A stretch of 64,000 nt of DNA. Origin: Gemmatimonadales bacterium (GTDB lineage Bacteria > Gemmatimonadota > Gemmatimonadetes > Gemmatimonadales > GWC2-71-9). A program made the position numbers. Of the stretch, positions 24,001 through 30,000 are shown one piece after another. The DNA is taken from assembly GCA_039794085.1 (NCBI GenBank), contig JBDIWC010000008.1, forward strand, positions 32,001 through 96,000, written 5' to 3'. Every line of letters starts with the position of its first letter. Positions within the stretch are counted from its first letter, which is position 1.

Positions 24001-27000
24001 CCACCACCTCTGTCGCCTCATTCTCGGGACCAACCTCCGCCCTCCGCGTCGGTACGATTCCTGGCACCCCCGACCCGGTATCGAGGAACACCAGCCCCGA
24101 TCCCGCCAAACTCGGTGGGATGTCCTGCATTCCCCCGGTTTCGATGGCCTCGGCCCGTTCCCGGGTTCGGCGGGCCCCCCGCACGTCACCCTGGACCTCG
24201 AGATGGGAGGCGAGCTTCTCCAACTGTTCCCTGGCCTCGTCGGTCCGGGAGGCCGCCCGGAGGAGCTCGCTCAGCATCAGTCGAATGTCGGGATTGCCCG
24301 AGAAGGTGTCGGCAAAGGCCTTCACCGACTGGAAGGCATCCTCGAGACGTCCCACCGAGTGCATCCGCTCCACATATTCGAGGAGGTTCCTCTTCGCCTC
24401 CGGAATGACATTCTTGCGGGAATGGAGCTGGGCGAGGCGGAGATAGGTTTCGGTACGACCCGGGTTGACCCGGAGGATCTTGCCACAGAGAGCGATCGCG
24501 TTGTTGTAGAATCCCTGGTCCGCGTAGAGCTCCGCGGCCTGCTCATAACCCCGGAGGGCGGCCGCCGAGTCCCCCGCCTTCATCTCGAGATCGCCCACCT
24601 TGTTGTACAGGCTCGGGTCCACGCTCTCGGACCCGGTGCCGAGTCCCTGGATGGCCCTGTGGTAGACCTCGATGGCTCGACGCCACTCCTCCCGTTGCTC
24701 AAACCGGCGGGCCTGTTCCTTGAGCTTGTCGAGATTCATCCGGGCCACGGGTCAGAGACGAAGGATGTGGTGAACCTGTTGCAACCTCGCAAGATAGATC
24801 CCCTCTCCGGGCCGGGCAAGCAATTACCCCGCCGTCCGGGCCGGATCCAGACGTCCCTCGGCAACCAGGGCCGCCAGCCGCTCCAGATCCACCCCGGGTG
24901 GCCGGTCCACCGTCAGCGGGGCTACACCACCAGGTCCTCGGACAAGGTCGAAGAGCCGGCGCACGCCGCGACCGGGCTGGAGCGGGCGCAGGATCTCCAA
25001 CCCTTGGGCGCCGCAGAGAAACTCGGCCGCCACCACCAGCTGGGCGTTCGCCAGAACTCGGCGGGCCTTGAATGCGGCGGCCATTCCCATGGGCACAAAG
25101 TCCTCCTGGTTGGCATCGGTGGGGATCGAGCCGATGCTGGCCGGATAGGACAAGGTTCTCGATTCGGCCACCAGGGAGGCCGCCGTGATCTGCACCATCA
25201 TGAATCCCGAGGAGAGGCCGGCCGACGAGGTCAGGAAGGCGGGGAGCCCCTGACTCAGATCGGGGTTGACCAGCCGCTCGATGCGCCGCTCACTGATAGT
25301 CTGCAGGGTGGTCAGCGCGATGGTGACGAAGTCCATAGCCTGGGCCACCGGCTGGCCGTGGAAGTTGCCCCCCGACAGCACCTCGGACCCGAACACCAGG
25401 GGATTGTCGGTCGAGGCGTTGAGCTCGACCGACGCCACGCGGCGCGCGAACGTGATCGCATCCCACACGGCACCCAGCACCTGAGGAGTGCACCGGAGGC
25501 TGTAGGCATCCTGGACCCGGGAGTCGCCCTGACGATGGGACTCCCGGATGGGGCTGTCGTGGAGGAGGTCGCGCATCAGGCGGGCGGCGATCCCCTGCCC
25601 CTGGTGGGGGCGGGCCTCATGAATCCGGGGATCGAGCGGGGTCGGGGTCCCTCGCAGCGCCTCCAGGCTCATCGCCGCCGCCCCGATCGCGGAGCGCCAC
25701 AGAACCTCCGCGTCGTGCACCAGGAGGGTGAGGACGGCGGTCTGGGCCTGAGTTCCGTTGATGAAGGCCAGACCCTCCTTGGGGCCGAACGTGAAGGGCT
25801 CCAGCCCGCATTCCTTCAGGACGAGGTGCGATGCGTCAACGGTGCCATCCGGCCGGGCGAGGGTGCCCTCCCCCATCAATGCCAGCGCCAGGTGGCTGAG
25901 AGGTGCCAGATCCCCGCTCGCCCCCACGCTGCCCTGTTCCGGCACGACTGGGATCGCCCCGCTGTTGAGCAGCGCCACCAGCGCTTGCGCCAGCGCCGGG
26001 CGCACGCCACTGGTGGGTCGGAGCAGCACATTGGCGCGGAGGCACATCATGGCCCGTACCACGTCCCGCGGGAGGGGAGTCCCCACGCCCGCCGCGTGAC
26101 TGCGGATCAGGTTGGCCTGCAGCGCGGTCAGGTCGTCCGGACCGATGCGGACATCCGCCAGCTTGCCGAATCCGGTGTTGATGCCGTACATGGTGTCGCC
26201 CCGGGCCACGGCTCGCTCCACGACGGCACGGGTGCCGGCCATGGCGTCGAGGGCCCGGGGGTCGATGTCGATCCGGAGATCCGGATTCCGGGCAATGCGG
26301 GTCAGGTCCTCAATGGACAGCGACAGGCCGGTCAGGCGAAGGGGGGTGTCGGTCATGGGCGGAAAGTGCGGGGCCCCGGGACCGGGGGCAAGGTCGGGGT
26401 CCTCCCCGGAGCGATGGCGCATGTGGCGATGTGTCAGGCGTCGCTACCGGACGGAGGTCTGGTTGTAGTCGAACTTGATGTCGGGAAGGTCGATCAGGTG
26501 GATCGAGAAGAAGAAGGAGAAATTGCCGTTGGCGTTCTGCGCGAAATTGAACGCGGCCTGCCAGTCGTGAAGATCCCGCTGGAGCCGGAAGATGTGGCTC
26601 TCGAACTTTCCGTCCGTCGCGTTGTAGTTGGTGTCCCAGGCCACGGCCCAGAACGCGGTGGGGCTGAAGGTGGTGTTGAAACGGATGTTGCTCTTGGTGG
26701 GCTGACGAACCGACAGGGTGTCCCCCTTGAGTGGGGGGCGGCTTCGGTTGATGGTGACGTTGATCGTGGAGGAGAACCCCCGGCCGCTCGGGAACCGCCC
26801 GAAGTCGCGGGCGCTGGTGATGGGCGCCTGGAACGGGGCTCCGGCGTTCGGGCTCATCCCCGGCGGGACCGTGGGGCGGTTGGCGTCGGGGGCATCCCGG
26901 TCCGCGATACCGAACAGGGAGCCGATCCCGCGTAGAGTGCGCCCGGTGAGGGTGAAACTCGCGTTCACGCTCTGGAGGAACGGTTCGAAGCGCGAGCTGT

Positions 27001-30000
27001 CGAACCCGGCCACTCCACGCCAGAGGTCGTGTCCCAGAGTGAGGTCAAATCCGGGCAGCAGATCCGAGTCGAACCGGTTGGTGATGAACTGGGTGACCCA
27101 CCCGTTCCGCCCCGGCTTCTTGGCCTGCTCGAAGTCGAACGTGATTCCCGACGTGGAAATGCCGAGGAGCCGGAACTTCCGCTGGGTACGACTCGTGGTA
27201 TCCCCGGGAGCGGGCCGTTCCTTCGCCTCGAAGTTCTGGGACAGGGAGAGCGTGAGGGTCGTGACCGCGGGACTCTCGCGCGTCACCACCTGCCCGGGGT
27301 TCGCGACCGCTTCGGCGAACTCCTGGGACACGGTGGCCGTGGGCGAATGATTGAACGAGAGAGAGGGCGCAATGCTGTGCCGGATCCGCTCAATCGGTCC
27401 AAACCCGGGAAAGAACCCGAAGAAGGTCGGGGCCGCGGCCAGACTGAAGGAGAGCCGCTTCCCCTGCACCAGGTAGGCCCCTCCGGTCCGCTCGTTTCGG
27501 ATGACGAAGGGTTGTCCCGCCAACTTGTTCGCGATCCCGACGGACGGGGTGACCTTCCACGAGCTCCGGAGGAGGAGCGGGAGGTTGATCCCGGTGTCCC
27601 AGTTCAGGGTGGTCGCGAAGGTCCCGGTGGTCACTTGCTGGACGCTGATCGAGTCATCCGGCTCCGGGGTGGAGAGATCGGGGACCTTCCGAGTGACGGT
27701 GCGGGGGCTCCGTTCCTCCCGGTCCGCAATGTTGACCGCGTTCCGCCAATCAAAGGTTCCGATGCGGAGCGGTGTCATGATGTTGATCGTTGTGTTGCGG
27801 GTCGTGGCGCGAAACGTCAGGGAGTCCAGTTCTCCCACCGGGGTCGCCAGGGAGACGATTCCATCCCGCCGTGTCGTCGCATTGCTCAACCGGAACGTGG
27901 GAGACCAGGTCACCGACCCCCCGAGATCGATCGGATTGGGGTTGAGGGACAGTTCCGGAAAGTTGGTCCGCACCTCGCTGTCGTTCGGGCTCTGGCTCCG
28001 GGTGCCCCCGAGGGAGGCCGTCCCCCACCGGAATCGGCGATCGAGATTCATCGAGGAGCGGATGTTCTGGGTGTTGACGATCGGGTCGATGGCGTTGTTG
28101 TTCAGGACTCGGGTGTTGCTCGCGACATCGAGGTTGAGCGTCAAGCGCGTGGCCACCCCGAAGCTCTGCCGGTGGTTCCAGGCGATGCGCGTGTTTGACT
28201 CCCCGCTGCCGTCGATCTGTTTCAGCCGTGACCAGGAAAGGTTTCCCTCCAGAAACCGGTCGAGCCACCGGTACTGCCCCGCGACCTCGATTCGCGTGCT
28301 CCGGTTGGCCAGCCAATCGAAGGTCCCCACAAAATCGAAGTAGTCGCTGGCGGCCCAGTAATACCCCATGTTGGTGACCTGGCGATTGAAGTTCCGGGTG
28401 GGGCGCACGATGTCGTTGAAGCCGAACCGCGGCACCAGAATGCCGGAGCGACGTCCCTGCTTGGTATCCTGGAAGATGAAGGGGAGCCAGAGCACCGGCA
28501 CATCCCGGATGTAGAGCACCGCGGGGCGCGCCACCATCGTGGACTGCGAGACCCATTTCACCTCTTTCGCGGCGAAATGATAGTGCGATTCGGGGAGGTC
28601 GCAGCTGGTGATCTCCTTGGCGGCGGCATACAGGCGGCTCGAGACCGAGTCGACGGCCAGGTTGCCCCGGATGAACCAGTTGGCGCCCTGCTGGTTGAAG
28701 GAGGTGAGGGCGTCGGACAAGACCCCGCGCTCGACACAGGTGTCGTAGCGCACCGTGTCCCCGATGGCCACCTGGTTGTTCTGGAAGAGTCGCGGTCCCC
28801 CGGTGGCGGTGAAGCGGCAGGCCGGGTCGTCGTACTCGATGATCTCCGCCTCCAGGATCGCTCCGCTTCGTTCCGTCATGGCCTGGCCCTGCAGCCGCAG
28901 CAGGCGGGTCCCGGCGTTCACCGACGCCGAATCGGCCATGTAGCGCGTCACCGCGAAGCCGGGCCGGGTAAGGAGACGTTGGAGAATGGAATCCCCGGGT
29001 CCGAAGCTCTTGCTCGGGCCGGTCGGGAGCCCCATGCGCTGGGCCGCGGCGGAATCCCGGGCCACCTGCGCCGCCCGGATGGAGTCCTGGGCGGTCATCG
29101 AATCGGGCACCACCCGGGTGGTGTCCTGTTGTGCTGTGGCGGATCCGGAGGGGACCCCCATCAGGAGCACCAGGGCTCCCACCGCGGCCGCCACCCGCCG
29201 GCGCCGGTGAATCACCATCGCCCCGGCCACCCCGACCTCGTAGAGCAACAGCAGCGGGAGGGTCATGATCAACATGGAGAAGACATCGGGACCCGGAGAG
29301 AAGAAGGCCCCCCCCACGAAGGCGAGCACCATCCAGTAGCGCCGGAACCGGTGGAGAATCACCGGGGTCACCACGCCGAGCGCCGCCAGCGTGATGATGA
29401 TGAGCGGCAGCTCGAAGGAGAGTCCCATGCCGAGCATGATCCGGATGACGAAGCCGAAGTACTTGTCATACGTGATCATGGTGGTGAACGATCCCGCCTC
29501 GATGCTGAGGAGGACGCTGATGGCCTTGGGTACCACCAGCAGGAACGAGAGCACCGCCCCGGTCAGAAAGAGCAGCAGCCCCGCAAAGAGACTGGGGACG
29601 ATCGCCTTCTTTTCCTTCTCGTAGAGGGCCGGAGAGAGAAACGCCCACACCTGCCAGAGGATGACCGGAGACGCCAGCACCAGGCCGGTGATGAATCCCA
29701 GCTTGAGCACGATCATGACCGGTTCGGTCGGGCTCAGGACGGTCAGTTTCCCGTCGGGAAGGAACGGGGCGATCGGCCCCTTGAGAACGTCGATCAGATG
29801 CAACTGGTCGACGAGAAGGAGGCCCAGGCCAAACCCCGCCACCACGGCCAGCAGCACCCTCAGAATGCGGGTGCGCAACTCCTCGAGGTGGTCGAGGAAC
29901 GGCATCTCACCCTCGACAGCGGGAGGTCGGGACATGGCAGGCTCAGGCGCGCGGCCGGCCTCGGGCACCGCCGGTCAGGGCCGGAGAGCCGAGAGCCGGT

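What a model noticed while it worked through the whole genome (the two positions that open the first line are those of the whole stretch)
26444..29905. TatC-LptD polyprotein joined by a retained signal peptide
The only tatC and the only lptD of this genome are one 1153-aa ORF (g00921): complete TatC (inner membrane), then a Sec-type signal peptide (RRRR, hydrophobic stretch, ATA|QQ), then LptD (outer-membrane LPS barrel). The fusion is fixed in most of family GWC2-71-9, and TatC's basic tail has become the n-region of LptD's signal peptide. We propose a polyprotein that signal peptidase I splits into two essential envelope proteins.
Evidence so far: Domains TatC 5-217, LptD_2 458-918, no other copy of either. 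All 120 best homologs listed carry both Pfams on one protein. Of 70 junctions parsed (of 121 proteins), 70 have a basic motif, 69 a hydrophobic h-region, 68 an AxA/G-Q site; only 10 have a Met there. Among 26 relatives' loci read: one open frame in 14 of 16 same-family loci, a stop after TatC in 2 of 16 and in 9 of 10 loci of the two sister families, where three show lptD restarting in frame right after the stop; two loci keep a longer linker, giving a series separate > long linker > merged. Paper searches TatC+LptD+fusion+Gemmatimonad and TatC+polyprotein found no description.
(Added by a program. Inside this text positions count along the whole contig: contig position 32,001 is position 1 of the stretch shown here. 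"Call 12" and the like, gene names such as g00115 and contig names such as C1 are that model's own, and its searches are not shown. The text may have been shortened before it was handed on; [...] marks where a part breaks off. The agent that wrote the report below was given it as the finding of a first reader that could run no searches.)

Follow-up and report, generated by a model that had tools for sequence, protein, structure and literature searches.

The report
Recurrent TatC-LptD fusion gene
In this bacterium and many relatives, one gene encodes both an inner-membrane protein-export subunit (TatC) and the outer-membrane lipopolysaccharide inserter (LptD), joined by LptD's retained signal peptide, which signal peptidase likely cuts to give two ordinary proteins; the join appears to have arisen and been undone several times in evolution.

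Summary
Confirmed. Window 26444-29905 (-) is one stop-free frame: TatC (5-217), a basic/hydrophobic/A-T-A|Q junction, then a full LptD fold. It holds the genome's only tatC and lptD. In a phylum-wide sample the two genes are usually neighbours, coupled by a stop/start overlap. They are fused in 54 of 64 same-family genomes and in 13 loci of a sister family. A tree needs 10 changes: 6 fusions, 4 re-splits; one origin is rejected. A cleavage-site model blind to position +1 lands on Gln in 68 of 89 fusions. An [AGS]|Q site lies at the junction in 89 of 89, against 33 of 89 in a control window. This genome has a glutaminyl cyclase and favours Gln after signal peptides. Internal restart is not general: 19 of 89 lack any start codon there, but this genome has one. 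Best reading (0.78): a polyprotein cut by signal peptidase I; cleavage is inferred, not shown. The precedent, Bradyrhizobium FbcH, is recalled. The scan noted this fusion before in 7 other genomes.

The parts
26444..29905 (-). tatC-lptD fusion ORF, 1153 aa (1163 aa if it starts at the ATG at 29935)
29210..29905 (-). TatC domain, residues 1-232, six predicted transmembrane helices
   Evidence: PF00902 5-217; TIGR00945 above cut-off; Foldseek to Aquifex TatC 4B4A, TM 0.83 by target length
29195..29209 (-). basic stretch, residues 233-237 (HRRRR): TatC's cytoplasmic tail, doubling as n-region of the internal signal peptide
   Evidence: sequence; the same basic tail ends unfused TatC proteins
29156..29194 (-). 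hydrophobic h-region, residues 238-250
   Evidence: sequence; uncharged run median 18 in fused vs 17 in stand-alone LptD signal peptides
29132..29155 (-). c-region, residues 251-258, ending in the predicted signal peptidase I site A-T-A|Q (cut after Ala258)
   Evidence: Q259 at least 90% conserved among 145 fusions
26447..29131 (-). predicted mature LptD, residues 259-1153: low-confidence N-terminal linker, beta-jellyroll (about 320-480), large beta-barrel (about 488-1151)
   Evidence: AlphaFold model, mean pLDDT 85.4; Foldseek ranks 1-15 all LptD chains, best E 6e-25
29216..29218 (-). in-frame ATG (Met230) with Shine-Dalgarno-like pairing of -6.3 kcal/mol: possible internal start in this genome, not conserved in the family
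29975..30760 (-). upstream neighbour cpoB (ybgF)-like gene; cpoB also precedes lptD in the 5 genomes where tatC has left the locus
   Evidence: TIGR02795/PRK10803 hits below cut-off
30757..31317 (-). pal, part of the upstream tol-pal cluster
   Evidence: TIGR02802 above cut-off
24824..26422 (-). downstream neighbour hutH (histidine ammonia-lyase)
   Evidence: TIGR01225 above cut-off
20864..21121 (-). the genome's single tatA/B/E-family gene, partner of TatC
   Evidence: PF02416, 1 match in the genome; ORF

Best explanation
One open reading frame encodes TatC, then LptD's retained Sec signal peptide, then LptD, and signal peptidase I likely cuts the chain after Ala258 so that two ordinary proteins result. 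Shown: the single frame, the two complete folds, the signal-peptide anatomy of the junction, its conservation, the ancestral coupled gene pair and the repeated gains and losses. Inferred, step by step: (1) TatC's six helices insert into the inner membrane co-translationally with both ends in the cytoplasm (established TatC topology, recalled); (2) the basic tail plus hydrophobic segment acts as a seventh, inside-to-outside helix that restarts Sec translocation and threads LptD into the periplasm; (3) LepB cleaves at A-T-A|Q; (4) glutaminyl cyclase turns the new N-terminal Gln into pyroglutamate; (5) LptD is folded by BAM with LptE as usual, while TatC keeps a 26-residue remnant that may be trimmed. 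The fusion arises easily because tatC and lptD overlap at a stop/start; a one-base shift joins them, and cleavage makes the outcome nearly neutral, which would explain why it flips both ways.
For: Junction site: a weight matrix for positions -15 to -1, trained on 115 stand-alone LptD signal peptides and blind to +1, puts Gln at +1 in 68 of 89 fusions (63 of 115 stand-alone), against 6.8% Gln in the following linker. An [AGS]|Q lies near the site in 89 of 89 fusions and 104 of 115 stand-alone genes, in 119 of 120 database homologues, in 33 of 89 control linker windows and in 0 of 89 at the exits of TatC helices 1, 3 and 5. The junction is the best-scoring site of the whole protein in 71 of 89. 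Length and hydrophobicity match true signal peptides (uncharged run 18 vs 17; best 19-residue hydropathy 1.74 vs 1.73; TatC helix 6 scores 2.01). Gln at +1 matters only once exposed: the genome has a glutaminyl cyclase (E 1e-93), 23 of 34 signal-peptide-like soluble proteins in a crude gene set start with Gln (3% background), and Q-rule papers describe this coupling in Bacteroidetes (PMC5837995, PMC10653852, passages). lepB is present, as are lptC, lptB, lptE, lptF/G and lpxC. History: 82 of 115 split pairs start lptD at the -1 overlap; parsimony on 195 rows gives 1 gain at the base of the own family, 4 losses inside it and 5 gains in the sister family; one clade for all fusions is rejected (p-AU 3e-9, 42-row subset); a further fusion lies nearest to other orders (P0122).
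Against: No protein-level evidence exists; SignalP could not be run and my matrix is home-made, with hand-set starting weights. A retained site fits equally well with LptD made from an internal start, and this genome has Met230 with a -6.3 kcal/mol pairing. TatC helix 5 exits score 10 or more in 35 of 89, so the matrix score alone is not specific. The refinement step that gives 89 of 89 looks for Gln and has a 37% chance rate. The loci are related, so counts are not independent, and I chose them from listed matches. The gains in genus g84 could be fewer gains plus losses; the trees are FastTree and quick IQ-TREE. The FbcH precedent could not be found in the paper library.
Confidence: 0.78

Rival explanations
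1. LptD is made mainly from an internal in-frame start at the end of TatC, and the full-length fusion is a side product or is what supplies TatC.
For: This genome has an ATG at Met230 just before the basic stretch, with -6.3 kcal/mol pairing; translation from it would give a normal-looking signal peptide. 70 of 89 fusions have some ATG/GTG/TTG between the TatC LYE motif and the h-region core. It would also explain the retained A|Q site.
Against: 19 of 89 fusions have no such codon, and 69 of 89 have none after TatC helix 6. Pairing of -5 or better occurs in 21 of 89 fusions vs 19 of 115 unfused tatC genes in the same zone, and at 79% of 108 true lptD starts. GTG use for Val in the zone equals the rest of tatC (0.54 vs 0.56). 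No position exceeds 41% start codons (all). TatC would still be made with LptD attached, so cleavage is needed anyway. Rare starts (CTG, ATT) were not counted.
Confidence: 0.08
2. The chain is not cut, or is cut slowly: helix 7 stays as an anchor and LptD remains tethered to TatC across the periplasm.
For: About 60 residues separate the junction from the beta-jellyroll, partly of low model confidence (240-276); fully extended they could span much of a periplasm (width recalled), so geometry does not exclude it. The bridge gene between lptC and lptB is unusual (499 aa, no family hit).
Against: The linker is no longer in fusions than in stand-alone LptD (median 46 vs 45 residues to the first conserved position). 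The helix has not become longer or more hydrophobic. Ala at -1 and Gln at +1 are kept in an otherwise unalignable stretch. Fusions revert, and lptD persists without tatC beside it. lptC is intact.
Confidence: 0.08
3. The chain is split, but by an intramembrane protease (rhomboid or RseP type) rather than by signal peptidase I.
For: A small-residue-rich, weakly hydrophobic helix is the kind of substrate such enzymes accept (established knowledge, recalled); a rhomboid processes Providencia TatA (PMC3712462, search listing only).
Against: The junction keeps the -3/-1 pattern and +1 Gln of the stand-alone signal peptides and of this genome's other signal peptides, which is what signal peptidase I reads. 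I did not search the genome for these proteases.
Confidence: 0.05
4. The fusion is an assembly or sequencing artefact that removed a stop codon.
For: All genomes read are unnamed assemblies; 3 loci show frameshifts inside lptD (L064, L085, L086), so errors occur.
Against: 89 genomes show the open frame, independent contigs have no indel at the junction, and the fused junction is about 15 codons shorter than a simple read-through would be.
Confidence: 0.01

Closest known systems
Bradyrhizobium japonicum FbcH, cytochrome b-c1 precursor (Thony-Meyer and colleagues, about 1989-1991; recalled, not found in the library)
   Same: A polytopic inner-membrane protein is followed in frame by an internal signal peptide and an exported protein, and the precursor is processed into two proteins.
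   Different: FbcH joins two subunits of one complex in one membrane, and processing was shown. Here two unrelated machines are joined, the second part must leave the inner membrane and be folded by BAM in the outer membrane, and processing is inferred.
Coupled tatC-lptD gene pair of other Gemmatimonadota (115 split loci)
   Same: Same two genes, same order, same signal-peptide ending with Gln at +1, same linker length.
   Different: A stop after TatC and a restart, at the -1 overlap in 82 of 115; LptD has its own n-region.
TatC (PF00902, TIGR00945; Aquifex 4B4A, E. coli 9DZZ)
   Same: Profile above cut-off, six-helix fold, conserved N-terminal and loop motifs.
   Different: Carries a C-terminal signal peptide and, before cleavage, about 900 further residues; only one TatA-family gene was found in the genome.
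LptD, LptD_2 family (PF19838; solved relatives 8H1S, 7OMM, 4Q35)
   Same: Beta-jellyroll plus large barrel; partner genes present.
   Different: About 11% identity to solved chains; larger; its three Cys (363, 390, 435) are all N-terminal, so the jellyroll-to-barrel disulfides recalled for E. coli cannot form; signal peptide internal.
Bacteroidetes Q-rule (PMC5837995, PMC10653852; passages read)
   Same: Gln directly after predicted signal peptidase I sites, and a glutaminyl cyclase gene.
   Different: Neither paper contains the word Gemmatimonad; the cyclase here is PF05096, whereas the Porphyromonas enzyme is called mammalian-like type II (PMC7948796, title only).

Membership tests
TatC | Family profile above curated cut-off over its full length | tested here: met
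   PF00902 203.6 bits vs 25.1, 1-208/208; TIGR00945 195.9 vs 132.7
TatC | Six-helix fold and conserved signal-binding motifs | tested here: met
   Foldseek TM 0.83 to 4B4A; HL[ED]ELR in 85 of 89 fusions, loop motif in 79 of 89. F[EQ]xP is less frequent in fusions (57 of 89) than in split genes (101 of 115)
TatC | Transports folded twin-arginine substrates with TatA | not testable with these tools
   tatA-family gene present; no assay
LptD | N-terminal beta-jellyroll plus C-terminal large beta-barrel | tested here: met
   (ranks 1-15 all LptD chains); PF19838 123.8 vs 22.5 bits
LptD | Proteobacterial LptD equivalog cut-off (PRK03761) | tested here: not met
   28.8 vs 683 bits; it belongs to the divergent LptD_2 branch
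LptD | Lpt partners and LPS synthesis in the same genome | tested here: met
   lptC, lptB, lptE, two lptF/G, lpxC; lptA only by position
LptD | Cys pairs linking jellyroll and barrel (recalled for E. coli) | tested here: not met
   Cys only at 363, 390, 435
Sec/signal peptidase I signal peptide | Basic n-region, short h-region, small residues at -3 and -1 | tested here: met
   -1 is A/G/S in 89 of 89 after refinement, -3 A or L in 77 of 89; home-made matrix, SignalP not available
Sec/signal peptidase I signal peptide | Is actually cleaved by LepB | not testable with these tools
   lepB present; no protein data
Signal-peptidase-processed bacterial polyprotein (FbcH type, recalled) | One ORF encoding two complete proteins that are separate genes in relatives | tested here: met
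Signal-peptidase-processed bacterial polyprotein (FbcH type, recalled) | No internal translation start accounts for the second protein | tested here: inconclusive
   Not general across 89 fusions, but a candidate ATG exists in this genome
Signal-peptidase-processed bacterial polyprotein (FbcH type, recalled) | Two mature products demonstrated | not testable with these tools
   no proteomics
Twin-arginine (Tat) signal peptide | S/T-R-R-x-F-L-K consensus (recalled) before the h-region | tested here: not met
   By inspection of the junctions printed: the basic run varies (R, K, single residues) and also ends unfused TatC
Q-rule organisms | Most signal peptidase I substrates begin with Gln; glutaminyl cyclase encoded | tested here: met
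   23 of 34 in a crude 900-ORF gene set; PF05096
Q-rule organisms | Pyroglutamate formed in vivo | not testable with these tools
   needs mass spectrometry

The most novel reading that the evidence does not exclude
Cleavage is slow or conditional, so LptD folds into the outer membrane while still tied to TatC in the inner membrane. That would be a natural trans-envelope polyprotein in which signal peptidase gates release of the essential LPS inserter and fixes it 1:1 with the Tat core, and selection for this coupling, not drift, would explain at least six independent fusions.
Probability: 0.1. Interest if true: 0.85.

Novelty: new variant of a known kind. Interest (0 to 1): 0.58.

Why it matters
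If cleavage holds, it extends bacterial signal-peptidase polyproteins from two subunits of one inner-membrane complex (FbcH, recalled) to an inner-membrane translocase core plus an outer-membrane barrel. It implies that LptD can enter Sec behind six transmembrane helices and still reach BAM. The junction has fused at least six times and split at least four times in one order, which makes it a clean natural case of a signal peptide acting as a reversible substitute for a stop/start overlap. Practically, databases label these 1150-aa proteins 'TatC' only, so LptD looks absent in hundreds of genomes. The side result that Gemmatimonadota appear to follow the Q-rule is new relative to the two papers read.

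Tried and rejected
Literature for the fusion: TatC+LptD+fusion gave 9 papers, none about it by title and abstract start; Gemmatimonad/TatC/LptD/outer membrane/gene fusion, 3 of 5 terms, gave 91 papers of which 20 were listed, none about it; internal signal peptide/two mature proteins gave 1 viral paper. None of these was read in full, and the library lacks most subscription journals. Four searches for FbcH found nothing relevant. Euglena polyproteins: 2 listings only, not read. bioRxiv 10.64898/2026.10.02.756314 (passages) concerns a different Bacteroides protein and does not bear on this; its supplements were not consulted. No RNA holder was listed among sequencing runs, so expression and transcript starts are untested. 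PF03968 found no LptA in the genome and the 499-aa gene between lptC and lptB has no NCBIfam hit. The AlphaFold model leaves residues 240-276 below pLDDT 50, so it says nothing on whether helix 7 packs on TatC. A Tat-type signal at the junction was considered and dropped. The check for fusion of tatC to its upstream gene was inconclusive for 12 of 204 loci with long open upstream frames, which I did not follow up; no lptD ran on into hutH among 154 complete copies. No complex prediction was sent, since no binding is claimed. Earlier notes near this place: none.
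Full report
Observation. The minus-strand frame 26447-29905 gives 1153 residues with no stop. Pfam finds TatC at 5-217 and LptD_2 from 458, and TIGR00945 passes its cut-off. Genome-wide searches find one TatC and one LptD_2 locus, both here (94.7% complete). 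An AlphaFold model from 145 fused sequences (mean pLDDT 85.4) shows six TatC helices, a low-confidence junction (240-276), a beta-jellyroll and a large barrel. Foldseek ranks LptD chains 1-15 and TatC next. Contigs of another study cover the stretch in one piece with no indel at the junction. The real start may be 10 codons upstream, at 29935.

Context. The gene lies between cpoB/pal and hutH. The genome has lepB, one tatA-family gene, lptC, lptB, lptE, lptF/G and lpxC. LptA is inferred only from position: a 499-aa gene between lptC and lptB has no family hit.

Distribution. TatC was found in 377 of 401 own-family genomes (tally includes 8 unpublished ones, on which no claim here rests). In the evenly drawn order sample, 54 of 64 own-family genomes have a TatC frame of 1000 aa or more (dropped: the own genome, one unpublished genome, one partial match, one without match). 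Of the other 10, two are fused but cut by a contig end (G113, G043), two were not fetched (G276, G023), three are split and three have tatC elsewhere. I then read loci that I picked from the listed matches, deliberately including short frames, so the next counts are not frequencies. Of 161 loci, all 20 from other orders and classes have tatC and lptD adjacent and split. After adding two genera of the sister family, one locus per genome gave 89 fused (76 own family, 13 sister family) and 115 split pairs (loci without lptD and contig-end stubs left out; L064 counted as fused because its frameshift lies inside lptD). In split pairs lptD starts at the -1 stop/start overlap in 82 of 115 and has its own signal peptide. 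All 120 best long database homologues carry both domains.

History. A concatenated TatC+LptD tree of 195 rows needs 10 changes of state: one gain at the base of the own family, four losses inside it (g36; g11; g35+g44; g14) and five gains in the sister family (three in g84, two in g79) (one search agrees on 141 rows). Several of those gains are multi-species clades, so they are not single-genome errors. A single clade for all fusions is rejected on a 42-row subset (p-AU 3e-9). One more fusion, P0122, is nearest to other orders. In 5 of 5 own-family genomes checked whose tatC has no lptD behind it, lptD follows cpoB directly with a signal peptide of its own. So LptD does not need TatC in cis.

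Cleavage site. A matrix over positions -15 to -1, trained on the 115 stand-alone signal peptides and blind to +1, lands on Gln at +1 in 68 of 89 fusions and 63 of 115 split genes; Gln is 6.8% of the following linker. Allowing a small shift, an [AGS]|Q is present in 89 of 89 fusions, 104 of 115 split genes and 119 of 120 database homologues. Controls: 33 of 89 in a linker window of the same size, and 0 of 89 at the exits of TatC helices 1, 3 and 5, although helix 5 reaches a score of 10 in 35 of 89. Q259 is one of few conserved columns between TatC and the LptD core. The segment matches true signal peptides in length and hydropathy and is weaker than TatC helix 6; the linker behind it is not lengthened (46 vs 45 residues). 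The genome encodes a glutaminyl cyclase, and 23 of 34 signal-peptide-like soluble proteins in a crude gene set start with Gln. In Bacteroidetes such Gln is cyclised after signal peptidase I cleavage and stabilises the protein (PMC5837995, PMC10653852; abstracts and passages). Selection for this Gln is hard to explain unless it becomes an N-terminus; that is inference.

Internal start. 19 of 89 fusions have no ATG, GTG or TTG between the LYE motif and the h-region core. Shine-Dalgarno pairing of -5 kcal/mol or better is seen in 21 of 89, close to the same zone in unfused tatC (19 of 115) and far below true lptD starts (79% of 108). GTG use is not raised (0.54 vs 0.56) (all). Against my reading: this genome has Met230 with pairing -6.3, so an added internal start here is not excluded; 22 of 120 homologues have a Met in that zone.

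Mechanism. Most likely (0.78) TatC inserts co-translationally, the seventh segment restarts Sec translocation, LepB cuts after Ala258, the new Gln is cyclised, and LptD goes to BAM while TatC keeps a short remnant. Only the anatomy, conservation and history are shown. Rivals: internal start 0.08, uncut or slowly cut tether 0.08, another protease 0.05, artefact 0.01. Geometry does not exclude a tether, since about 60 residues precede the jellyroll.

Comparison and novelty. It works like Bradyrhizobium FbcH (recalled; four searches did not find it), but joins two unrelated machines of two membranes. Searches found no description, judged from listings. The scan reported the same fusion in 7 other genomes; those notes agree and are not independent evidence. 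I rate it a new variant of a known kind, interest 0.58: real, widespread, undescribed in what I could search, and testable, but most likely resolved by ordinary machinery.

Noticed in passing
whole genome G000; glutaminyl cyclase at L257 (G000:C39:19775-20455): Gln follows the predicted signal peptidase site in 23 of 34 soluble candidates (3% background) and a PF05096 glutaminyl cyclase is present: a Q-rule-like pattern in Gemmatimonadota, a group not mentioned in the two Q-rule papers read.
   Followed up: partly
L278-L282 (G012, G303, G132, G076, G007): tatC has left the cpoB-tatC-lptD-hutH locus; lptD follows cpoB directly. In G303 (L279) the LptD N-terminus resembles the first residues of TatC, suggesting an in-frame deletion of TatC from a fusion. 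These genomes carry a different, stand-alone tatC.
   Followed up: partly
L058/L059 (G397), L079 (G086), L118/L123 (G411): Some genomes hold two tatC copies, one fused to lptD and one stand-alone.
   Followed up: no
proteins P0130-P0136, P0127-P0128, P0144: Other TatC fusions: apolipoprotein N-acyltransferase Lnt followed by TatC (7 clusters, one labelled Gemmatimonadetes), TatC followed by NadA (candidate division KSB1), and TatC with a FecR-like domain.
   Followed up: no
protein P0122: A TatC-LptD fusion with the same A|Q junction whose nearest relatives among my loci are split pairs of other orders (f4, f8): probably a seventh independent origin.
   Followed up: partly
L283:8834-10333 (G000:C16): A 499-aa secreted protein between lptC and lptB, in the usual place of lptA but much longer and without an NCBIfam hit or a PF03968 match.
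   Followed up: partly
window 20864-21121: Only one TatA/B/E-family gene was found in the genome, 8 kb from tatC, suggesting a minimal TatAC system.
   Followed up: no
window 26447-29131: The LptD part has Cys only at 363, 390 and 435, none in the barrel; most fusions have 2-3 Cys.
   Followed up: no
L064, L085, L086, L035: Frameshifts inside lptD in single assemblies, probably errors.
   Followed up: no
window 29933-29935: An upstream in-frame ATG that may be the true start; most relatives have one 6-11 codons before the conserved MPFLDH motif.
   Followed up: partly
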